Origin: a virus
Taxonomy: Duplodnaviria; Caudoviricetes
Length of the DNA stretch: 36,743 bases
IMG/VR virus record: IMGVR_UViG_3300032330_002275
Coordinates: 1 to 36,743 of that record
Direction: 5' to 3' (one strand)
Shown here: positions 171 to 34,217 of the stretch, piece after piece
Layout: every line of letters starts with the position of its first letter
Numbering within the stretch: the first letter of the stretch is position 1
Notes under the pieces: model-generated
Told to the model about the DNA's origin: nothing
What the model saw: only the letters and a program-made list of their open reading frames with translations
The model's database searches: none
Translations under genes and position numbers: made by a program

Positions 171-1400
171 TTGGAGTTTAGGCACTCAACTTTAACCATC
201 GTGTCTGAACTACTCAGGTTATGCCCCTTCACAGAGACTGTCCCTTTACAGGAGACTCCACCAGTGTATAGCAACAACTCAAACGTGTCAACAAAATCCA
301 TCTATCCAGACATCTCCCGCCTCTTCCCCATCCTCCTCGTTCACAAAGACTCCAAGAGACCCGCAGAGTTACACGGCATCCACTCAGCATCCCATGTGCG
401 TGGCAAAGGACGGCCCGTGGACTTCACACGGTTTAATGCCGGCGTCCGATGCGGTGCTTGGCTCGGTGCCGGCCTGCTGATCGTTGACGTGGACCCCCGC
501 AACAGTGGGCTCTTGAGCTTTGACCACCTGCGTGCCGCTTACGGCGACCCACGTCAAGACCCTGGTGCATGGGTTGTAAACACGCCAAGCGGTGGATTCC
601 ACTTGTATTTTCTCTATGACCCCAACGCCTGGACAGTCAAAAAGTCAAGCACCGCTCTGGGACGTGGAATCGACGTCTTGGGTGATGGGAGCTATGCACT
701 CATCCCTCCTTCCACTTACGGAGGTGTGAGCTACACATTCGAGGAAGAACCCACTGGATGGCCCTTAGAGGCCCCTCTGTGGCTTTTGGGGTTGGTTGGG
801 GTAGGGATGGATATCAGTTCCAATGTTGATGAGGGAAGGAGCGCAAACGGCGCAGTCAGTGCCAATGAACCAGGGGCAGGTGGTACTGAAGGCGAGGAAG
901 GCACAGTGTCCGTTGATGAGGCCGAAATCGTACTGACACGCATACACCCCGATTGCGGGCGCGATGATTGGCTCCGCATCGGCATGGGACTCAAACACCC
1001 AACAGGTCTTGGCGATACTCCCGCCGCTATAGCACTCTGGATCCAATGGTCCAAAGGAAACTTACAACAAGTGTATGCTCAAAAGTTCAATCAAAAGAAT
1101 TGTTTGGCTGTATGGAATTCAATCAAAGGAGGAAAAGGAGGAGCCGTCACTTGGGCGTCCGTCGTGCAGATATCGCTGTCTCAAAACTCTATTAAGGATT
1201 TGAACATGAATACAAATTTAGCTAAGGAAATAAAAGAATCTTCTGTGCCCGTCTTTCCCACCAACACAGAAGAATCACTAACAACACCACTCAAAGAGGA
1301 ACCAAAGAGGGCATCAATAACACAACCAATACCACCCAAAGAGGAAGCAAAGATGGCGTCAATAACAACACTAAATCCACTCCAAGAAGGAGAGAATTAA
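171..1400 (+). CDS. Bifunctional DNA primase/polymerase (Prim-Pol, AEP superfamily) with PriCT-2 domain
   Basis: LLIVDVDPRN (DxD), VNTPSGGFHLYF, GIDVLGDGSYALIPPS; PriCT-2-like RDDWLRIGMGLK...LWIQWSK. TTG start uncertain. Confidence 0.9.
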   Translation: MEFRHSTLTIVSELLRLCPFTETVPLQETPPVYSNNSNVSTKSIYPDISRLFPILLVHKDSKRPAELHGIHSASHVRGKGRPVDFTRFNAGVRCGAWLGAGLLIVDVDPRNSGLLSFDHLRAAYGDPRQDPGAWVVNTPSGGFHLYFLYDPNAWTVKKSSTALGRGIDVLGDGSYALIPPSTYGGVSYTFEEEPTGWPLEAPLWLLGLVGVGMDISSNVDEGRSANGAVSANEPGAGGTEGEEGTVSVDEAEIVLTRIHPDCGRDDWLRIGMGLKHPTGLGDTPAAIALWIQWSKGNLQQVYAQKFNQKNCLAVWNSIKGGKGGAVTWASVVQISLSQNSIKDLNMNTNLAKEIKESSVPVFPTNTEESLTTPLKEEPKRASITQPIPPKEEAKMASITTLNPLQEGEN

Positions 1401-1497
1401 TTGATATCTATACCAAATCCACTCCAAGAAAGAGAGAATCGAGTGATATCTATACCAAATCAACCCCAAGAAGGAGGGAATCGAGTGATATCTATAA
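1287..1497. repeat. Degenerate 42-45 bp tandem repeat array across the primase/helicase junction
   Basis: Three 42-bp units like AATCCACTCCAAGAAGGAGAGAATnnnnTGATATCTATACCA (1374-1499), preceded by two related ~45-bp units. Confidence 0.85.
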
Positions 1498-20893: not shown

Positions 20894-23742
20894 TGGCAAC
20901 ACGACAACCTGGTCCTGCTGTTCCGGTGATGCCAGTGCCAAAGATACCTCTGTGGAATGCCACAACGGGCAAGGAGGAGTACGTCCCAAAGGATCAGGCG
21001 GGAGCTTTGCTAGCAGATGCAGCTTCCCCTTATGGGTTTGTTCCCGGGTCTAAGCAGTACTTTAAGCATGCTGATGGGGAAGTCAGGCTTATAGACAACC
21101 CTGACGACCTCATGGCCTCTTTGCGTGCAGGATCACAACCTGTCACAGAGGCTGAAGCCTTCCGTGACAAGAGGGCCAAGAGTGGGCTTGGGCAAGCCAT
21201 AGCGGGAGTTGCAGGAGCTGCGAGTGGGGCAACCTTCGGGCTGTCCGATCTTGCAGCCAGGGGCGTGCAAGAGGCCACAGGTTTAAACGTGGCTGAAGAG
21301 ATCAGGGCGGCCAAAGAGGCCAACCCGACCACAGCGGCTGTGGGAAATGTGTTGGGCACCATAGGCTCGTCTTTGGCATTGCCAGGAGGCGGGTTGGTTG
21401 GGGCGGCATCGAAGCTAGGAGCGGGTGTTGCCGAGCGAGCGGGTGCTGCCATTGGAGCAGATGTGGCCAAAGGGGTGTTGGCATCCGCTGTAAAAAAGGG
21501 AACCGCTGCGGCCGCTGGGAGTGCTGTTGAGGGTGCGCTTTTTGGAGCGGGTCAGACGCTAAGTGAGCAGAGCTTGGGGGATCCCAGGTCATTGGGTGAA
21601 AGCCTTGTTGCCAACGTGGGGTTGGGCTCCATGCTAGGAGGCATGGTAGGCGGGGGTTTGACGGCAGGGGGCCAGCTCTTGCAACCTGCCATCGGAGCAG
21701 TGGGCAAGGGGTTTGTGCAGGCATCGGGCAAGCTAAGAAAGTTTGAAGATGCTGACATTGCTGTTCAAAAGTCAATCTTCGACAAGACAAACCCTGTTCG
21801 GGAGTATTTGACGGACAACAAAAAGTTTCAGTCGGCCGTCGAAGACAATGTGCATGCAATCCTCACAGATGCGGCCGAGCATGGGCAAGGTGCAAGCCGT
21901 GCTTTGAATGAAGCCATTGCCTCAACGAAAGTGGATGCAAGGGTTGGCCGTCAGGCCATCAATGCCACACGGGATCAGATTGACACGCTGTTGACGTTAG
22001 CCCCTCACGACACACACAGTTTCCCGCCTCAAGTTGTGCGCGAATTGGATGGTTTGAAGCAGATGTTGACACCTCTTTCAAAAGAAGAGGCAAGTGCTGT
22101 GAGTGAGCAGATAGCACTGAGGCAGCAAAGGTTGGCATCGGCCAAATTGACGGATGCTCAAAAGGAAGGTGTCGAAAACCAAATCAGAGACTACCAAACG
22201 GTCTTGAACCGTGGGAGCCCTGAGAATGCGCTAGAGGTGTTGAGGGAGGTCAAGCGCAAGACGTTTGAGTTAGGCAATTTGAGTCAGAGTGCTTCTTTGA
22301 TGGATCCGACGCAAGCCAGGGCTGCAAAGGTTTTTAAGGGACTCAATGACACGCTGAAGACATCGGTATGGGACAGTGAGGCGTTTGGCCCTATAGCGCA
22401 ACACTTGTCGGCTTTTGATGAGGCTGCGGCAACACGTTTTAATGCGATGAATCAGCTCAAAGAGCTTGGAGTTTTGAAGAAGCAGGGGCAGTCATATGTG
22501 CTTCAAAAGAATGGGATAAACTCCATTGTGAGGCAAGGCGGCGAGGGGGCTGATGCGTTAGAGGCGTTGATGCAAGCGGATGCGAAGGTGCAGGCGGCAC
22601 ATGCAGGGCTGTTGGCAGGTGCAGGAAAGGAAGGTGTCGAAGGGGCTGTGGCTGGTACTGGGGCTATCAGTTCCAGTGTTAACGACTTGCCCAATATCCT
22701 CCGACAAAAGATGGCCGTTCAGGGCTTGTTCCGAAATGAGTCCATGACAGGCCGCTCTCTTATTGGCTCTGTTGGCGGATATGCCCTGGGTGGACCCGCA
22801 GGTGCAGCTCTAGCTCTAGGGCTAGAAAATCCAGGATACATCACTCAACGGCTAGCAGGGATGTTTGAATCTGCTGGACAACTCTCTGGGAAAAGCATCA
22901 CTGGCAGCTTGCTCAGCACGGCCAATGCCGCCACTACTACACAGATTATTGACAAACTTAATCAGGCTACACAAGCTGAAGTTGATAAGTATGCTCAAAT
23001 GCGTCAACTGGAAGAAGCTCAAAACAATGTTCAGAAGACCATTCAGACGTCTTTTAGCAACGGTTTGTCCAGTGCTGCTAACGCTAAGTCTGTTGATATC
23101 CCAAAGAGCAGTTTCACCATTTCACCAAAAGACTTCACTGCTATCAGGACAAGTCTAGAAAGTGGTGAGAGTCCCTTTGCAGCACAGGTGAAACAGAGCT
23201 ATGCGCAAACCCCTCAAGCCGCAGCTGCTGCTCAAGAGACACTCAAGGTTGCCCAAAACTTCCTAAAGCAAAAGCTCCCAAATGCCGTGCTGGACGATCT
23301 TGGCCAGCCCGTGCCTCCAGGGCCAGTGGCGTTGGCTAAGTTTGCCAAGTATGCCGAGGCGGTGTCTAACCCCATGGTGGTGCTAGAGAACCTCAACAAG
23401 GGCTACGTTTCGCCCGAGGGGCTGGACACACTTAGGACGGTTTACCCACAGATGTGGGCCGCCGTGCAAGAACAGGCTAAGAATAGCGTTACGGACAAGG
23501 CCATGAGTGCACGCCAGAAGCAGTTCTTGGCTCAAGTCATCAGCGGGGGTAGCAAGTCCCAGCAGGCGATTGGCCAATCCGCCCAAGCCGCATGGGTGGG
23601 CATCAATGCCAAGAATGCAGCTAACCCCATGTCCGAGGCATCGGCATCCGCTCAAGCCGCTCTAGGGTCCCAAGGGATCCACGTGAAGCCTTTTGACGTA
23701 ACCGCCTCCAAGGCCCCTGAGAGGCGTGGTAGCTCAGTCTAG
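20893..23742 (+). CDS. Large internal virion/ejection protein
   Basis: 949 aa, G/A-rich hydrophobic stretches, last structural gene. Confidence 0.7.
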   Translation: MATRQPGPAVPVMPVPKIPLWNATTGKEEYVPKDQAGALLADAASPYGFVPGSKQYFKHADGEVRLIDNPDDLMASLRAGSQPVTEAEAFRDKRAKSGLGQAIAGVAGAASGATFGLSDLAARGVQEATGLNVAEEIRAAKEANPTTAAVGNVLGTIGSSLALPGGGLVGAASKLGAGVAERAGAAIGADVAKGVLASAVKKGTAAAAGSAVEGALFGAGQTLSEQSLGDPRSLGESLVANVGLGSMLGGMVGGGLTAGGQLLQPAIGAVGKGFVQASGKLRKFEDADIAVQKSIFDKTNPVREYLTDNKKFQSAVEDNVHAILTDAAEHGQGASRALNEAIASTKVDARVGRQAINATRDQIDTLLTLAPHDTHSFPPQVVRELDGLKQMLTPLSKEEASAVSEQIALRQQRLASAKLTDAQKEGVENQIRDYQTVLNRGSPENALEVLREVKRKTFELGNLSQSASLMDPTQARAAKVFKGLNDTLKTSVWDSEAFGPIAQHLSAFDEAAATRFNAMNQLKELGVLKKQGQSYVLQKNGINSIVRQGGEGADALEALMQADAKVQAAHAGLLAGAGKEGVEGAVAGTGAISSSVNDLPNILRQKMAVQGLFRNESMTGRSLIGSVGGYALGGPAGAALALGLENPGYITQRLAGMFESAGQLSGKSITGSLLSTANAATTTQIIDKLNQATQAEVDKYAQMRQLEEAQNNVQKTIQTSFSNGLSSAANAKSVDIPKSSFTISPKDFTAIRTSLESGESPFAAQVKQSYAQTPQAAAAAQETLKVAQNFLKQKLPNAVLDDLGQPVPPGPVALAKFAKYAEAVSNPMVVLENLNKGYVSPEGLDTLRTVYPQMWAAVQEQAKNSVTDKAMSARQKQFLAQVISGGSKSQQAIGQSAQAAWVGINAKNAANPMSEASASAQAALGSQGIHVKPFDVTASKAPERRGSSV

Positions 23743-23879
23743 GTAGGCTAGGCTCCCCTTGGGCATACATTGGAATTGAATGCCAATATTGGCCCGTCTA
23801 GGCGGTTTAGTGGGGTAACCTGGGGTAACCTGGGGGCGAGCTGTGTATGGGTGGATTGAGAAGACGTTGCCCGCTGGAG

Positions 23880-24217
23880 CGGAGTCGAAAACCACTACGG
23901 TCTTTTGAATAATTTTTTCTTCGAAAAAATTTACCTGTTGAATTTTCTGCGAAAATTACAACAGTACGTGTGATCGTATTGGATAAGTGTTTTGATTTGT
24001 TTGAGACCAGGGCCGTCCTTGGAATTCAATACCAACCAACCCTTCCTCTAGACCCTGCCTTGCACCGCACTGAGATCAGGTTGCCACTCCCCACTAAACA
24101 GATCTGACCTAAACAAATCACGATCACACGCACTGCTGTAATTTGCGTAGCAAATTCAGCAGGTAAATTTTTTCGAAGAAAAAATTATTCAAAAGACCGA
24201 CAAGGTTGTCGGCTCCG
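23880..24217. repeat. Long imperfect inverted repeat with internal cGNAg hairpins
   Basis: Arms ~23880-24010 and ~24106-24217; 40-bp perfect core 23898-23937 / 24160-24199. Confidence 0.95.
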
Positions 24218-24530
24218 GCGGCCGAGATCCCAAAAGTCCAAAGACCAAACAGGCTCAGTTCACCAGCATTTTGCGATAACAGCTGACACGCCCTTATTAA
24301 TACATAAAGAAGAGTTTATAGTTTTTTTCAATAATAACAGTATAGATGTTTCTGGATCAGCACTTCCGTGTATCCTATGGCTTACTATGGGTACTGTTAT
24401 CATTAGCAAACGTTTTTCACTCTTTTGTTGAAATCATTAGGAAATTTGTAGTTTGATTTTTATAGCTGCCATGTGCAAACTTTGAACACTAAACCAAAGG
24501 CTCTCCAGTTTTCAGGTGCAAATTTTTGCG

Positions 24531-24560
24531 TTGACAGGTTTAAGTTTGTTATGTTACAAG
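24531..24560 (+). promoter_or_regulatory. Putative sigma70 promoter for RepL-like gene 1
   Basis: TTGACA-N18-TACAAG with TG extension. Confidence 0.45.
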
Positions 24561-24592
24561 GTGGTTTGTGGAAAAAGGGGGTAACTTAAACA

Positions 24593-25213
24593 ATGGAGAT
24601 TAAACCAGAAAGCAACATTCCGGTGATGGTCAAAACTGGCGTTAAAACTTTACCTAGGTATTTTAAAAACCCATTTTTGACAGCGGATACCATTTTAAAC
24701 ACTAAGCAAAAAATACACTATTCTACTGTTAAGAAAGGAAGATTTGGAGACATAGATACTGGAGAAATTCACGGAGATACTTTAAATATTGCTGTTCAGT
24801 CAGAATACGATTCTGAAAGTTTTATTAAAGTTTACGCCGGTATGAGCCGCATTTGGTATGACATGTCTAACGTTGGAATGAAAGCTTTCGCTTTGGTATT
24901 TGCCGCTATACAAGAGTCTATTCCTGGGGCCACATTTGTGTATATACACAATCTTGACCCAAGAAGTCGGCACTTTCTTGCTTCAAATGGTCAGTTTTAC
25001 AAAGGAATACATGAACTTGTGAATCTGAACATTATTGCACGACATCGCTCTGAGCACTGGTATTGGGTAAATCCATTTGTCATGTGCAGGACAAACCGGA
25101 TTCGGATTTTACAAGATGTAAAGCTAGAGAAGAAATTAGAATCTAACGGATTGACGAACTTACAATTAACGACAAAGAAGCATAGAAAAAAGAAGGATAA
25201 CAATAATGAATGA
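24593..25213 (+). CDS. RepL-like plasmid replication/maintenance protein 1 (wHTH)
   Basis: NPFL, DIDTGEI, DSESFIKVY, FYKGIHELVNLNIIAR, WYWVNP motifs. Confidence 0.75.
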   Translation: MEIKPESNIPVMVKTGVKTLPRYFKNPFLTADTILNTKQKIHYSTVKKGRFGDIDTGEIHGDTLNIAVQSEYDSESFIKVYAGMSRIWYDMSNVGMKAFALVFAAIQESIPGATFVYIHNLDPRSRHFLASNGQFYKGIHELVNLNIIARHRSEHWYWVNPFVMCRTNRIRILQDVKLEKKLESNGLTNLQLTTKKHRKKKDNNNE

Positions 25214-25433
25214 TGTATTTGAAATGAAGCAAAGTCAGTTGATATCGGATAAAAAGTGGCTACAAAAGCAGTTAAAGAATTTTAACGAATCACTCCTTAA
25301 AGAGGATTTTGGTGCAATGCTAGAGTATAAGCGGCTAAACAAGGAGATAGAAAACATGGGACTTAATGCAGCACGGGACTTTTACATTGAAGCAGCTAAA
25401 AATATTTTGGAAGGACGCGGTGCACTGGAATGA
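25206..25433 (+). CDS. Small helical protein after RepL-like 1
   Basis: Overlapping start; FYIEAAKNILE. Confidence 0.65.
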   Translation: MNDVFEMKQSQLISDKKWLQKQLKNFNESLLKEDFGAMLEYKRLNKEIENMGLNAARDFYIEAAKNILEGRGALE

Positions 25434-25474
25434 CAAGGCAAGAGCCTACATTTGTTAAGGTTTATCTAAAATAA
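25430..25474 (+). pseudogene. Possible truncated RepL-like remnant (MTRQEPTFVKVYLK)
   Basis: ATGA-coupled 14-aa ORF with EPxFVKVYL, similar to SESFIKVY of RepL-like 1. Confidence 0.45.
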
Positions 25475-25562
25475 CAGCTAGTTTAGGGTATACGGGAGTG
25501 TACTGTATTAACTAAGGGACACAAAAACCCTGCTGTTATTAAAAGAGAATTAAGGGGGTATG

Positions 25563-25592
25563 TTGACTTTAAAGCCTATAGGTGTTTACATT
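25563..25592 (+). promoter_or_regulatory. Putative sigma70 promoter for RepL-like gene 2
   Basis: TTGACT-N18-TACATT. Confidence 0.4.
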
Positions 25593-25642
25593 TACGACAA
25601 TTCAATTTATTGTCTTGTATCACTCTATATAAGGCGGTATAT

Positions 25643-26149
25643 ATGCGTAATCCCCCGATAAGTCCAAGAGATGAGCTTAACAATGGAATTGCTTCTACAT
25701 ACTTCCAAGCCATTGTTGAAGGCCGTGTCAAATGCGTGTCCGCTTCCAAACTTAAACGGGGTAAACCTAAGTTTGAATTTGTGGGAAATTTTATGATGAT
25801 CGCTCTTAAGTTATTTTCAGATCTGTCAGTTAACAAAGATTTAGGAGTTAACGACTTTAAAGTTTTGTTTTGGATTTTGGGGAGTGTTGGATTTGATAAC
25901 AAGATTATTTTAAACCAATCGAAGATTTCAAAAGATATTGGTATCAATGCAAGATATGTGGGATCCGCTGTAAATAAAATGATCGGGATGGATATGATCA
26001 TTGTGCTTAAAAAGCATGGAGTTTTAAGGGAAATTATCCTTAACCCAAGAGTGTGCTTTGCAGGTTCCGCTACTGCCCATCAAAAAGCCGTCAGGAAATA
26101 CACACAACCTCCCAAGCTTAAACAAGTTAAGTTAAAAGTCGTCAAATGA
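25643..26149 (+). CDS. RepL-like plasmid replication/maintenance protein 2 (wHTH)
   Basis: FMMIA, DFKVLFWILGSVGFDNKIILNQSKISKDIGI HTH, LNPRVCFAG; start could be 25610. Confidence 0.75.
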   Translation: MRNPPISPRDELNNGIASTYFQAIVEGRVKCVSASKLKRGKPKFEFVGNFMMIALKLFSDLSVNKDLGVNDFKVLFWILGSVGFDNKIILNQSKISKDIGINARYVGSAVNKMIGMDMIIVLKKHGVLREIILNPRVCFAGSATAHQKAVRKYTQPPKLKQVKLKVVK

Positions 26150-26322
26150 TGAGTAACAACTTTGACCCAAAAACAGCGATCCTTTACCTCGAAGCCGCTA
26201 AAGAGGTGCTAGAAAAATCAAGTCAAGAAAAGGATATCATCTGCTTACGTGTAGACATCGACGGTGCTCTCTACATGATCAACAAAGCATTGGATGCCCT
26301 GGAGCTTAATCAAAGTCCGTGA
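26149..26322 (+). CDS. Small protein (57 aa) after RepL-like 2, absent from the ORF track
   Basis: MSNNFDPKTAILYLEAAKEVLEK...; start overlaps upstream stop; motif shared with 25206-25433. Confidence 0.6.
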   Translation: MSNNFDPKTAILYLEAAKEVLEKSSQEKDIICLRVDIDGALYMINKALDALELNQSP

Positions 26323-27736
26323 AAACATCCGCATGCCTCCTGTTGAACTGGCTGGTTGCATGCTTCAGGAAGGCATCCTCCATAACTTTCATGGGGTCGG
26401 GCTTCTCTTTCTCAGGGGCAAAGAGGTAGGCTCTAGCTTCTCTATATGAATAAATACAAGCATCTGCGCAATGATTGTCACACGCCGGGTTTTCCACCTT
26501 CCTGTCCTCATCGAGCCAAACGAGCTCCCGCATTTCATCAACCAACGCCGATGCCTCTTCGCTGATCTTCAGCTTGCCCAAAATGAGGGCCCCGTTGACC
26601 TCCTCGATAAAAAGCCGCTTGTCCCTTTTTTGAGCAGGGTGCACGTTGAGGAGGTACCGCCGCCTCCACTCTTCGGCAATGCTCTTGCCTAACCCGCCCT
26701 CGTCAACGACAGTGCGTATGATGTTATACCTCTTTTGTAACGCATCGATGCGCTTTGCAATCTCACTCGGGATAAGGCCCGTCTGACTTGTGGCGTGCAC
26801 CACATAAGCCGTATCGCTCACACGGCGGTTCCAGCCCACCACCACAAACGCAGCAGCGTCCTTGAACCCAATGTCTACCCCGAGCACAAACGTGTCACAG
26901 CACGCCTGCTCGACGGCCTCTGACGGCACAACCGTGTGCTGCTGAAGCTTGTACACAAGGTCGTCCGTGTCGGCGATCCACTCCCCCTGATAGTTCCTTC
27001 GAAAGCTCGGGGTCTGAGAAATGGCAGGATTGGCAGCCACCATACCATCCACCTGTTGCTGTATGGCCGACGCTATGTGCAGGTTGTCTTGCCACCCCCA
27101 CGTGTGCATCTCCCATGGGATGGTCTTCTCTCTGCCAGTGACGATGTCAAAAAAGAAGCCTTTAGGGATAAGCCCTGGAGTGCCAATAAACCGAATCTTT
27201 CCTTTACGTTCTGCCATGGTGATGAGGAGCACGTCATAGAGCAGGTACCTCACATGCTCAGGAAAGCTTTGCCCCTCGTCCACCACCACAAGGTCCAGCG
27301 GAATGCCCAATAGCTTTTCAACATCACCAATGCTGTCGCCTGCACCCGTAAGCCAAATCTGTGAGCCGTTCTCAAAAGTGAACGACAGGTCGGCGATGCT
27401 CTCGATGGTCTTGACCTTGTATTTCTTCAACAGTCTACGGATGATGGGGCGGATGATGTTTTTGGCATGCCCACGGGTCAAGGCGATGTAGAGCAGATTT
27501 CCCTCATTCAATTCCAATGCCCGAGAGACTAGAGAGGCCGCACAAGCATAACTCTTGCCAGCTCGCCGTGTGCAACACGCCGCCGCATATGGACTGTCAC
27601 TATCAACAAACTCACGCTGCTGAAGGAAAAGTCCACTGCGTATGCTCTCAACCAACGACCGCCGACTCACCGAAGATCCACTCAAGATCATCCGGCGTCG
27701 ATACTCCGCTAAAAGCCTCCGCTCACTCTCTAGCAC
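26306..27736 (-). CDS. terL: Terminase large subunit
   Basis: Walker A CTRRAGKS, Walker B VVVDE, IGTP, nuclease LGVDIG and NHCADA. Confidence 0.95.
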   Translation of the reverse strand: MLESERRLLAEYRRRMILSGSSVSRRSLVESIRSGLFLQQREFVDSDSPYAAACCTRRAGKSYACAASLVSRALELNEGNLLYIALTRGHAKNIIRPIIRRLLKKYKVKTIESIADLSFTFENGSQIWLTGAGDSIGDVEKLLGIPLDLVVVDEGQSFPEHVRYLLYDVLLITMAERKGKIRFIGTPGLIPKGFFFDIVTGREKTIPWEMHTWGWQDNLHIASAIQQQVDGMVAANPAISQTPSFRRNYQGEWIADTDDLVYKLQQHTVVPSEAVEQACCDTFVLGVDIGFKDAAAFVVVGWNRRVSDTAYVVHATSQTGLIPSEIAKRIDALQKRYNIIRTVVDEGGLGKSIAEEWRRRYLLNVHPAQKRDKRLFIEEVNGALILGKLKISEEASALVDEMRELVWLDEDRKVENPACDNHCADACIYSYREARAYLFAPEKEKPDPMKVMEDAFLKHATSQFNRRHADVFTDFD

Positions 27737-28001
27737 GGATTGATATCACCTTTTTCTCTGCCTTTTTTTCTTCGCAATCTTCCCCTTTTTCCGTCTCTTC
27801 CCACAATGCACAACTCAAGTTTGTGAACGAGATCTCCACAATCCTATTGGGCGTCTTTGTCTTATGACGCGCTTCCACATTTCCACGCTCATTGATCTCA
27901 AGCTGAAAGCCTTCATCGATTGTCATGAAATTGTTGAGTTTACCAGCCAGTTGAACTGCTTGATGAATGTAGATGGCTTTCAAAGTCTTCTTGCTTTGCA
28001 T
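27723..28001 (-). CDS. Hypothetical protein upstream of terminase
   Basis: Packed between GNAT-like gene and terL; start uncertain (28001 or 28046). Confidence 0.55.
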   Translation of the reverse strand: MQSKKTLKAIYIHQAVQLAGKLNNFMTIDEGFQLEINERGNVEARHKTKTPNRIVEISFTNLSCALWEETEKGEDCEEKKAEKKVISIRARE

Positions 28002-28503
28002 AATATTTCTTTCTGTCTTGCAAAAGTTTGGGAACAAACAGTCCACTCCTCTTCAGCGTGGGAACGGATAGAAATCCACTTTCTGTCAAAAACGCATAAT
28101 ACTTTAACCCATCATAACCAAGTTTCTTGCTGACATTGTCCGCCTCTTCAGACAGCATCTTCGCAAGCCCAAACCCCCTAAAGGCATGCTTGATATACAA
28201 CCAATACAAACACTCAGGGTGGTACACCACAAAAGCACAAATGCTCGAAGCATCCTCTTTCAGCCTGATAACAAGAGCTTGCGTTTGATGATGGCTCAAC
28301 AGAGTGGTGACGACATCACGTGCATCACGATAATAGATGGGCCCATTGATGTACCTGTGTTCCGGAGATCTCCTCATCCCACAGATCCAGCTCCTCAACA
28401 CAAACGGCAAGTCGTTGACGCAAAGGTTGTCTAACCTCACAAGGTCGGAGATGTCTTTGTCTTCCCTTTCAGTCATATCAGTCATCTCAGTCATCTCAGT
28501 CAT
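27940..28503 (-). CDS. GNAT-family acetyltransferase-like protein
   Basis: LYWLYIKHAFRGFGLAKML matches acetyl-CoA-binding motif A. Confidence 0.7.
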   Translation of the reverse strand: MTEMTEMTDMTEREDKDISDLVRLDNLCVNDLPFVLRSWICGMRRSPEHRYINGPIYYRDARDVVTTLLSHHQTQALVIRLKEDASSICAFVVYHPECLYWLYIKHAFRGFGLAKMLSEEADNVSKKLGYDGLKYYAFLTESGFLSVPTLKRSGLFVPKLLQDRKKYYAKQEDFESHLHSSSSSTGW

Positions 28504-28816
28504 TTAGCACCACCCTACCTACCCTACCTACCGTGTTGTCTTTGTTGTCTTTGAAATGCCTCTCTTTCAACAGATCCACAGCCTCCTCCAGATCCTCATC
28601 GCTCATGGCACTCAAGCTTTTGTCGGGCAACACATCCTTTGCCGCCTTTGCATATTGAGAGATTTGATTGCCAACAAGAGACAACTTGCTCAAAGACCTT
28701 TGGCTCAAAGTCCCACTCCTGCTCTCCACTTGCAGTTGGTTGAGCTCCCGTGCCAAGACGATGCCCAACCCCCTCAGGAGTTGTTCAGCGGTGTGAATGT
28801 TCGTTAACCTGCTCAT
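28496..28816 (-). CDS. Probable terminase small subunit-like protein
   Basis: Small helical, LSAMSDEDL C-terminal motif, first gene of the terL operon; GGAG SD. Confidence 0.5.
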   Translation of the reverse strand: MSRLTNIHTAEQLLRGLGIVLARELNQLQVESRSGTLSQRSLSKLSLVGNQISQYAKAAKDVLPDKSLSAMSDEDLEEAVDLLKERHFKDNKDNTVGRVGRVVLND

Positions 28817-28827
28817 AGGGGGTCTCC

Positions 28828-29382
28828 ATGGAACTGATTGCCAATGATAACGTGGATGCCGAAGATGCAGATCTGGGTGTGCAAGCTGTGCAAGCTTACC
28901 AGATCCCTCCGTCACCATATGCCCTAAGCCTAAACGATTTCTCCTCTTGTTTGATCAAACACCTCAACCTCGATGAGCCTGGTCTTGCGCAAAAGTGTGA
29001 AGAGGCATACATGAAATCACCATTTCATCTCGCTGAGTTGTGGGGAAGACTTCAGGGTTTGCACCACCTCAAAGTTGACCAGTATTATGGCTTCTGTCAC
29101 AAGCTCCACCATCAAGACTCAATTCGTGAAATGTATCTTTTTTTTGTCGCACAAGTTGGTGCTTACATGAAATGCAAGATTTCAAAAGCATTGGCCATCG
29201 ATGGGTTTAAACTTTACGAGAAGTGGGCATACCTGAATTATATCAAAGTCAACGGTGCTCAACCAGAAAGGCGTTCCACACATCCATACTACGGCTCTGA
29301 CGCATACCTAAAACAGCAAGCAGAAAAAAGAGAGCAGATCATGGCTAAGAGGGAAGCTGCAAAGACAAACGCCTATCCGTGA
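28828..29382 (+). CDS. Hypothetical protein with DxIxEMYL motif
   Basis: 184 aa, AGGGGG SD; QDSIREMYL. Confidence 0.65.
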   Translation: MELIANDNVDAEDADLGVQAVQAYQIPPSPYALSLNDFSSCLIKHLNLDEPGLAQKCEEAYMKSPFHLAELWGRLQGLHHLKVDQYYGFCHKLHHQDSIREMYLFFVAQVGAYMKCKISKALAIDGFKLYEKWAYLNYIKVNGAQPERRSTHPYYGSDAYLKQQAEKREQIMAKREAAKTNAYP

Positions 29383-33653: not shown

Positions 33654-34156
33654 ACCAAAATGGAGTGTCTGGAGTGTCGTTCACACTAAAAAGGCTAAAT
33701 CCTGTTATGCACCTGTCCAGCGGATGCGTTAAGCTTCACCTTCAGATGCGCAGTGGACCTGAGTATGGGAAAAAAATGCTAGATATCGTTGTCTGTAGTG
33801 GACAACCTGACTATCAATTCTTTCGCAAAGCAGGAGATCCTAGAAACGTTCCTGGCAACATGGAGCCACTCCCTCAAGGCGTATACACAGTAGGCGATAT
33901 TGAGTGGGCCAATGGCAAGAACAGTTATACCGGTTCTTGGGGTCTAGGATTGGGGCCTGTATGGGTGCCCATCACATGTGCCGAAGAAAAGAATCGAGGA
34001 GGCTTTGGCATCCACTTAGATGCCAATAGAGACACCTGTCCAGGCACAGCAGGTTGCGTTGGGATACTGGATTTGTCCACGGATCTTTACCATTTAGTAG
34101 CAGCACTGCGTGCAGGGGATCCCAAGACACTGGTTGTGGACTGGGGTTTGGATTGA
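33650..34156 (+). CDS. L,D-transpeptidase-fold (YkuD/Tlde1-like) protein, candidate lysin
   Basis: PLPQGVYTVG and GIHLDAN...GTAGCV His...Cys motif. Confidence 0.7.
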   Translation: MNQNGVSGVSFTLKRLNPVMHLSSGCVKLHLQMRSGPEYGKKMLDIVVCSGQPDYQFFRKAGDPRNVPGNMEPLPQGVYTVGDIEWANGKNSYTGSWGLGLGPVWVPITCAEEKNRGGFGIHLDANRDTCPGTAGCVGILDLSTDLYHLVAALRAGDPKTLVVDWGLD

Positions 34157-34217
34157 GTGGATTGAGTGGATTGAGTGGATTGAGTGGATTGAGTGGATTG
34201 AGTGGATTGAGTGGATT
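34150..34217. repeat. (GGATTGAGT)7.5 perfect tandem repeat
   Basis: Seven full 9-bp units plus GGATT between convergent genes. Confidence 0.95.

What the first reader, a model, noticed from the sequence alone, without database searches (positions are those of the whole stretch)
23880..24217. Large inverted repeat made of covarying cGNAg-triloop DNA hairpins, one set per strand
Seen: ~110-130-bp arms, 40-bp perfect core, ~16-nt bulge, ~95-nt loop. The right arm (+) has AATTTGC-GTA-GCAAATT and AATTTTTTC-GAA-GAAAAAATT; the left arm (-) has AATTTTC-GCA-GAAAATT and the same second hairpin. The differences in the first hairpin are a compensatory pair swap (G-C to T-A) and the free loop base, so local hairpins appear selected. 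Known: cGNAg triloops are very stable ssDNA hairpins used at origins and N4 virion-RNAP promoters; RSF1010 primes from inverted ssiA/ssiB sites with an AEP primase. Inference: paired single-strand initiation sites for Prim-Pol or RepL, or a resolution/end/packaging site.
Basis: partly seen in the sequence, partly recalled or inferred. Interest (0 to 1): 0.85.

Follow-up and report, generated by a model that had tools for sequence, protein, structure and literature searches.

The report
Back-to-back DNA hairpin priming signals
An uncultured phage carries two inverted copies of a pair of DNA hairpins in front of plasmid-type replication genes, and natural strains change the hairpin stems only in ways that keep them paired, so they likely act as start signals for DNA synthesis on single strands, one set per strand.

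Summary
The repeat is real: 98-bp arms, 86 of 98 complementary, holding the only four cGNAg hairpins with stems of 5 bp or more in this 36.7-kb podovirus (shuffles: 0.06 at 7 bp). Hairpin 1 is longer than reported (6 bp + bulge + 7 bp) and has a second compensatory pair. Two public runs add a compensatory swap and a paired deletion in hairpin 2. All 8 changes seen in stems keep the pairing, while 9 changes outside stems are not mirrored in the other arm. So the local hairpins are conserved and the long cruciform is not. Related phages show the unit is one arm (motif, cGNAg hairpin, RepL/RepY-type gene about 310-450 nt on), found singly or back to back. One relative has a TrfA/Rep3-like gene with 22-bp repeats in this slot and no such hairpin. 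Best reading: single-strand priming signals of a swappable plasmid-type origin cassette (0.5); the enzyme is unidentified. It is not an RSF1010 ssi by the GTG test, not an N4 promoter (no RNA polymerase found) and not a MITE. No function was tested. New variant of a known kind; interest 0.5.

The parts
23880..23977 (-). Left arm (inverted copy of the hairpin-bearing arm); inner extension 23994-24007 after a 16-nt bulge
23911..23931 (-). Left hairpin 2: 9-bp stem, cGAAg loop; run X3 shortens both homopolymer sides by one base
23935..23964 (-). Left hairpin 1: 6-bp lower stem, 1-nt bulge, 7-bp upper stem, cGCAg loop
24040..24061 (+). Central motif (core AGACCCTG) shared with G001, G003 and L068, 83-90 nt 5' of the hairpin loop where both occur; function unknown
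24120..24217 (+). Right arm, in the orientation and spacing of the single arm of relatives
24133..24162 (+). Right hairpin 1: 6 bp + bulge (24139) + 7 bp, cGTAg loop
24166..24186 (+). Right hairpin 2: 9-bp stem, cGAAg loop; run X7 swaps the pair 24168/24184 from T-A to C-G
24297..24339 (+). AT-rich stretch 77% like the DNA upstream of the RepL1 ortholog of G004 (E 8e-5, small local search); candidate initiator-binding or melting segment
24593..25213 (+). RepL1: RepL/RepY-type protein (P0001), predicted winged-helix; replaced by other DNA in run X4
25206..25433 (+). 75-aa ORF of the cassette, no family
25610..26149 (+). RepL2: Pfam RepL PF05732 (E 6e-7), no pairwise match to RepL1
23761..23839 (.). 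Left flank: imperfect palindrome 23770-23786 (second copy 24019-24035), a 10-bp repeat that expands in runs X2 and X4, and a 10-bp repeat at 23811-23839; role unknown

Best explanation
The repeat is two inverted copies of a hairpin-bearing arm that heads a swappable plasmid-type replication cassette, and its cGNAg hairpins likely serve as single-strand initiation signals, one set on each strand. Shown: the hairpins, their compensatory variation, their place in front of RepL/RepY-type genes in this phage and relatives, and the exchange of the gene behind them. Inferred: RepL would bind and open the AT-rich DNA between the arm and its gene; the exposed strand would fold its GNA hairpins, which resist single-strand-binding protein; a priming enzyme, more likely the host's than the phage Prim-Pol, would load there. 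One arm would prime one strand; the extra inverted arm here would let both strands be primed.
For: Structure over sequence: 2 compensatory pairs between arms (chance about 2e-4 on a simple count), one swap in X7 and one paired deletion in X3; all 8 stem changes keep pairing; the X4 change at 24139 hits the bulge; 9 changes outside stems are not mirrored (5 break, 2 restore, 2 leave the arm-to-arm match). Relatives: G003 has two 220-bp arms, each with a cGTAg hairpin about 350 nt ahead of a RepL gene; L068 has one arm with a different stem and the same loop; G004, with an SPP1-type portal, has the RepL1 ortholog and the same bulged hairpin with another stem. Slot: G001 has a TrfA/Rep3-like gene (lead only, score 0.94) and 22-bp direct repeats here. 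The RepL1 family includes RepY of pDSM110277_f, which replicates autonomously. GNA mini-hairpins lie in the RSF1010 ssiA, and a related one binds SSB poorly. Outside the discovery set such hairpins are enriched upstream of RepL genes: 10 in 11.4 kb against 16 in 58.4 kb, p = 0.006.
Against: No experiment. Only 3 of 16 independent RepL loci outside the discovery set have a stem of 5 bp or more upstream (7 of 16 at 4 bp), and the tested RepY replicon has none within 800 nt. Run X4 keeps the repeat but has other DNA in place of RepL1 and RepL2, of unknown content. The genome has its own Prim-Pol and helicase with 42-45-bp repeats at 1276-1496, a second origin candidate. Skew extremes do not fall on the repeat (GC minimum 10923, maximum 26030). 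The window's AT-rich stems share only shape, loop and spacing with the GC-rich hairpins of G003, L068 and G004. Template switching can make paired changes without selection. The X3 and X7 variants are single contigs at depth 4.5 and 2.7. No primase triplet is conserved beside the hairpins.
Confidence: 0.5

Rival explanations
1. The hairpins are extruded from duplex DNA and bound or cut as the leading-strand (double-strand) origin of a RepL replicon, not used for priming.
For: Position 310-450 nt upstream of RepL on the coding strand in window, G003, L068, G004 and the L125 lineage; RepL plasmids of the pSN2 family are described as rolling-circle; AT-rich stems would extrude easily (inference).
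Against: The RepL1 model gives only weak winged-helix matches, none at E 0.001, and no nuclease-like match among those listed; the middle loop base varies (T, C, A), unlike a nick sequence; the GNA loop lies on one defined strand of each arm.
Confidence: 0.15
2. The region is the packaging or genome-end site: terminase recognises the central motif and perhaps the hairpins.
For: The central motif is kept in G001, which has another initiator and no hairpin there, and is absent from G004, which has other packaging genes; its 19-base pattern hits only G001 in 2.9 million viral contigs; G001's contig ends lie on it; the motif sits at the centre of the repeat.
Against: The hairpin follows RepL1 into G004 and is missing at this place in G001; contig ends may be arbitrary; only contigs, no raw reads, were available to show ends. 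This reading may hold for the motif while the hairpins serve replication.
Confidence: 0.13
3. RSF1010-like origin for the phage's own Prim-Pol and helicase: strand-displacement replication primed from the two arms.
For: Inverted copies on complementary strands with GNA loops, as in ssiA/ssiB; the genome encodes Prim-Pol + PriCT_2 and a helicase; pRN1 and phage BIP-1 link such proteins to stem-loops; GTGTG lies near hairpin 1 on the opposite strand of both arms (sequence).
Against: No GTG within 11 nt 3' of the hairpins on the GNA strand in 5 of 5 arms; no match to the window's Prim-Pol or helicase in G001-G004 at E 1e-4, though G002-G004 are incomplete; the primase gene is about 13 kb away round the circle.
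Confidence: 0.12
4. A functionless scar of an inverted duplication, its stems kept perfect by template switching.
For: The slot is rearranged in relatives: G003's right arm is preceded by a remnant of the ejection-gene end and encloses the adaptor gene. Template switching yields paired changes (own knowledge).
Against: All four loops keep cGNAg on one strand while stems and the middle base vary; the same loop is kept in G003, L068 and G004; the left copy has no broken pair.
Confidence: 0.05
5. Transcription signals: N4-type hairpin promoters or RNA terminators closing the late operon.
For: The arm follows the last late gene; N4 promoters use GNA loops with 5-bp stems.
Against: No RNA polymerase among 41 ORFs nor a PDB match for the 949-aa protein; the terminator scan does not call these hairpins; the hairpins of G003, L068 and G004 have no U-run on either side; GNA stability is described for DNA.
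Confidence: 0.04

Closest known systems
RSF1010 (IncQ) oriV with ssiA/ssiB and primase RepB' (PMC8567376, passages; PMC13037366, section 4.2 and passages)
   Same: Inverted copies on complementary strands, each a hairpin capped by a GNA triloop, in a replication region.
   Different: Two hairpins per arm; no GTG just 3' of the hairpin; no RepB', RepA or RepC match found; single-arm versions exist.
RepL/RepY plasmid replicons: pSN2 family (PMC5703833, passages), pDSM110277_f RepY (PMC9025767, passages), pW5NP1 (PMC6015842, passages)
   Same: RepL1 belongs to this protein family by profile and feature searches; pW5NP1 has two template-strand and two coding-strand cGNAg hairpins upstream of repL in the same order as here.
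   Different: Here the cassette sits in a tailed phage; most RepL plasmids checked lack such hairpins; in pW5NP1 they are not a long inverted repeat.
crAssphage (Carjivirus communis) with two repL genes and predicted origins (bioRxiv 10.1101/2024.03.20.585998, passages)
   Same: A podovirus with two distantly related RepL genes and a predicted origin upstream of one.
   Different: Origins there are predicted by software, skew and coverage; the words hairpin and inverted repeat do not occur in that text; unrelated phage.
pRN1 and phage BIP-1 stem-loop origins of Prim-Pol/helicase replicons (PMC4234260, passages)
   Same: A stem-loop whose integrity matters more than its sequence, in a genome with Prim-Pol and helicase.
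   Different: There one 100-nt stem-loop lies just downstream of the primase gene; here the long stem is not what is conserved and the site lies by RepL.
N4 virion RNA polymerase promoters (PMC13037366, section 4.2)
   Same: 3-base GNA loop on a short stem, read on a single strand.
   Different: No virion RNA polymerase found; longer, bulged stems.

Membership tests
RSF1010-type ssiA/ssiB | Two inverted copies on complementary strands, each with a GNA-capped hairpin | tested here: met
RSF1010-type ssiA/ssiB | GTG primer-start triplet 4-6 nt 3' of the hairpin on the same strand | tested here: not met
   0 of 5 arms have GTG within 11 nt (feature)
RSF1010-type ssiA/ssiB | Cognate RepB' primase, RepA helicase and RepC | tested here: not met
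   Prim-Pol PF09250 + PriCT_2 instead; no RepB/RepC family among 41 ORFs; no PDB or plasmid match for the primase
RSF1010-type ssiA/ssiB | Primer synthesis at the site | not testable with these tools
   needs a priming assay
RepL/RepY plasmid replicon | RepL-family initiator gene next to the site | tested here: met
   P0001 by Atlas features 0.97 and structure, 456 homologs at E 0.001, family hits on 200 plasmids through P0004; P0002 PF05732
RepL/RepY plasmid replicon | Autonomous replication from gene plus upstream DNA | not testable with these tools
   shown for pDSM110277_f only
RepL/RepY plasmid replicon | ssoA-type single-strand origin as in pSN2 | not tested
   no ssoA model was compared; Rfam gave only two weak matches far below threshold
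N4 virion-RNAP promoter | Virion RNA polymerase encoded by the phage | tested here: not met
   (sequence searches only; no fold of the large ORFs)
MITE / non-autonomous transposon | Several copies, terminal repeats with target-site duplication | tested here: not met
   single pair in the genome, no flanking duplication outside the arms; no significant DNA match in plasmids or phages; host genome unknown, so copies there are untested
Telomere-resolution site of N15-like phages | Near-perfect palindrome without spacer and a protelomerase gene | tested here: not met
   98-nt unique spacer; no protelomerase family among 41 ORFs
pac/cos packaging site | Virion DNA ends at the site | tested here: inconclusive
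   only contigs available; G001 contig ends on the motif

The most novel reading that the evidence does not exclude
RepL/RepY initiators, small winged-helix proteins with no evident nickase or helicase, start replication by opening DNA so that GNA-capped hairpins recruit a primase; this phage has doubled the arm into an RSF1010-like origin that primes both strands, giving a tailed phage a plasmid-style strand-displacement mode and a ready-made covarying test set for how RepL works.
Probability: 0.25. Interest if true: 0.72.

Novelty: new variant of a known kind. Interest (0 to 1): 0.5.

Why it matters
RepL/RepY replicons occur on small plasmids of many bacteria and in phages such as crAssphage, and a 2017 review calls the pSN2 family less studied, with no known copy-number control. 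This locus offers a short cis element with natural compensatory variants, single-arm and double-arm versions, and a relative that swapped in another initiator and lacks the hairpin. That makes direct tests of how a RepL cassette primes DNA, and of a phage-plasmid lifestyle in this phage group, easy to design.

Tried and rejected
Exact search for hairpin 2 in viral contigs: one hit, a 2.2-kb CRESS-like contig (L001), taken as unrelated. blastn of the region against plasmids and phages: only E 0.2-0.9 hits. Rfam: nothing near threshold. Word-based protein searches found only the window's own RepL1 and RepL2. The gapped hairpin pattern gave 8 loci; 5 (L041-L045) have no hairpin and no RepL and were dropped as chance. 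Terminase searches gave few close relatives; none of 12 further terminase loci screened, L068 apart, had a RepL hit. GTDB scan with the RepL1 alignment: one 13-residue hit, no host learned. No RNA holder listed. No strand-switch joint showing a flipped spacer in 6 runs laid, but contigs cannot exclude it. The shuffle control is uninformative with two sequences (137 of 500). RSF1010 itself was not in the collections, so the comparison rests on paper passages. Fold search of RepL1: no match at E 0.001. Literature searches (listings, with passages of 7 papers) showed no description of GNA hairpins at RepL genes; the library lacks most subscription papers and the bioRxiv supplements were not seen.

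Full report
Setting. The window is a whole 36,743-bp virus record with an 18-base end overlap: Prim-Pol and helicase, SU10/P22-like portal, capsid and adaptor, large ORFs taken as tail and ejection genes (label inferred from position), terminase, SSB and Sak4 (41 ORFs scanned). The repeat lies in the 850-bp gap between the 949-aa ORF ending at 23742 and an AT-rich cassette (37% GC against 50%) with two RepL-type genes. RepL2 hits PF05732. RepL1 has no Pfam hit, but is RepL-like by Atlas features and structure, has 456 homologs, and its family, searched through P0004, is on 200 plasmids such as Col(MG828) and pDSM110277_f. The latter's gene, named RepY, was shown to support replication (PMC9025767, passages). 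The host is unknown.

The observation. Confirmed as described, with one extension: hairpin 1 is 6 bp + a 1-nt bulge + 7 bp. Of the six arm differences inward of the perfect core, four form two compensatory pairs, one is the free loop base and one is outside the stems.

What is conserved. Fifteen public runs hold part of the region; six were laid. X3 has one contig across both arms' hairpins, so the repeat is no artefact of one assembly, and it lacks one T and one A on the two sides of left hairpin 2. X7, from another study, changes the pair 24168/24184 of right hairpin 2 from T-A to C-G. X4 has nine changes in the arms, none in a stem, one on the bulge; five break the arm-to-arm match, two restore it, two are neutral. 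So all 8 stem changes keep local pairing, and each compensated strain change breaks the long pairing. The conserved thing is four short hairpins, not a 340-bp cruciform. Caveats: X3 and X7 are single low-depth contigs, and template switching can give paired changes by itself (own knowledge).

Relatives. Three viral contigs share the terminase at about 50%. G003 has, after its ejection gene, two 220-bp arms (94-96% alike) pointing outward, each followed by a RepL gene, with the adaptor gene between them. Their sequence differs from the window's except for a cGTAg hairpin and the motif AGACCCTG. L068, a close variant of G003, has one arm straight after the ejection gene, then RepL; its stem differs and its loop is kept. 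G003's right arm is preceded by a remnant of the ejection-gene end, so that genome is rearranged. G004 has an SPP1-type portal but the RepL1 ortholog, and carries the same bulged hairpin with a third stem. Motif-to-loop spacing is 83-90 nt in the window's right arm, both G003 arms and L068, and the RepL start lies about 310-450 nt on. G001 keeps the motif but has a TrfA/Rep3-like gene (Atlas lead) with 22-bp repeats and no cGNAg hairpin in this slot. G002's 20-kb fragment has neither motif nor RepL1. X4 keeps the repeat but has 862 other bases in place of RepL1. The unit is therefore an arm heading an exchangeable replication gene. The hairpin goes with RepL-type cassettes, the motif with the podovirus backbone, and the window has an extra inverted, gene-less copy of the hairpin part.

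How general. I scored 800 nt (or what was held) upstream of RepL genes outside this set: 12 plasmids that I picked from the 40 listed of 200 hits, and 5 of 11 viral loci (four near-copies of L125 and two with truncated upstream DNA left out; L125 and L128 counted once). Stems of 5 bp or more were found in 3 of 16, of 4 bp or more in 7 of 16; 10 hairpins in 11.4 kb against 16 in the other 58.4 kb (p = 0.006; at 5 bp 5 against 6, p = 0.02, three of the five from one plasmid). pW5NP1 has two on each strand in the window's order; the tested RepY replicon has none. The hairpins are enriched near RepL but are not required by the family. No control with other initiator families was run.

Mechanism. 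Shown: structure, covariation, position, cassette exchange. From papers: GNA-type mini-hairpins are unusually stable in DNA, occur in RSF1010 ssiA and N4 promoters, and a tandem G4-type mini-hairpin binds SSB poorly (PMC13037366, passages and section 4.2); RepB' primes at a GTG 3' of the ssi hairpin (PMC8567376, passages). Inferred: RepL, modelled as a small winged-helix protein with only weak matches, opens the adjacent AT-rich DNA; the hairpins fold on the exposed strand and load a priming enzyme. I favour a host enzyme because the hairpin goes with RepL1 into genomes where the window's Prim-Pol was not found (three of the four are incomplete) and the GTG is missing. With a set on each strand, both strands could be primed. 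Confidence 0.5; rivals are a RepL double-strand origin (0.15), packaging (0.13), a Prim-Pol origin (0.12), a scar (0.05) and transcription signals (0.04). Against the reading: skew does not point here, a second origin candidate lies in the primase-helicase genes, and the content of the X4 replacement is unknown.

Novelty. Phages with RepL genes are known (crAssphage preprint, passages), and so are paired ssi hairpins (RSF1010). Nine searches of the held library showed no account of covarying GNA hairpins heading RepL cassettes. Earlier unreviewed notes of this scan describe what seems to be G003 in similar terms; that is not independent support. Verdict: real, structurally constrained element; new variant of a known kind; function untested; interest 0.5.

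Noticed in passing
window 1276-1496: Two 45-bp and three 42-bp direct repeats across the Prim-Pol/helicase junction, where one ORF ends at 1400 and the next starts at 1401; a second origin candidate, or a split gene.
   Followed up: no
window 34149-34217 and about 23851-23860: Perfect 9-bp tandem repeat between converging genes; one unit also stands just left of the inverted repeat.
   Followed up: no
window 26306-28918; G001-G003: The terminase block faces the tail-fibre genes one way in the window and G001 and the other way in G002 and G003.
   Followed up: partly
window 24285-25430 and 25470-26307: Run X4 has other DNA in place of both RepL genes (862 bases for the first), with the repeat and flanking genes kept.
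   Followed up: partly
window 23761-23839 and 24010-24035: Two copies of an imperfect 17-bp palindrome, and a 10-bp unit that expands by 2-3 copies in runs X2 and X4.
   Followed up: partly
G001:C1:1-127 and 37181-37307: The contig's end overlap contains the shared central motif; a weak hint of a genome end or a variable junction.
   Followed up: partly
L001 1694-1714: A CRESS-like 2.2-kb contig has the identical 21-base cGAAg hairpin between its converging genes.
   Followed up: partly
L119 96-310 (pW5NP1): Four cGNAg hairpins upstream of repL, two per strand, in the same order as in the window.
   Followed up: partly
L117 1110-1168 and 2134-2192: A 59-bp inverted repeat flanks repL in a 2.7-kb Bacteroides plasmid.
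   Followed up: no
L081 3134-3293: A 160-bp imperfect palindrome in a distant terminase relative.
   Followed up: no
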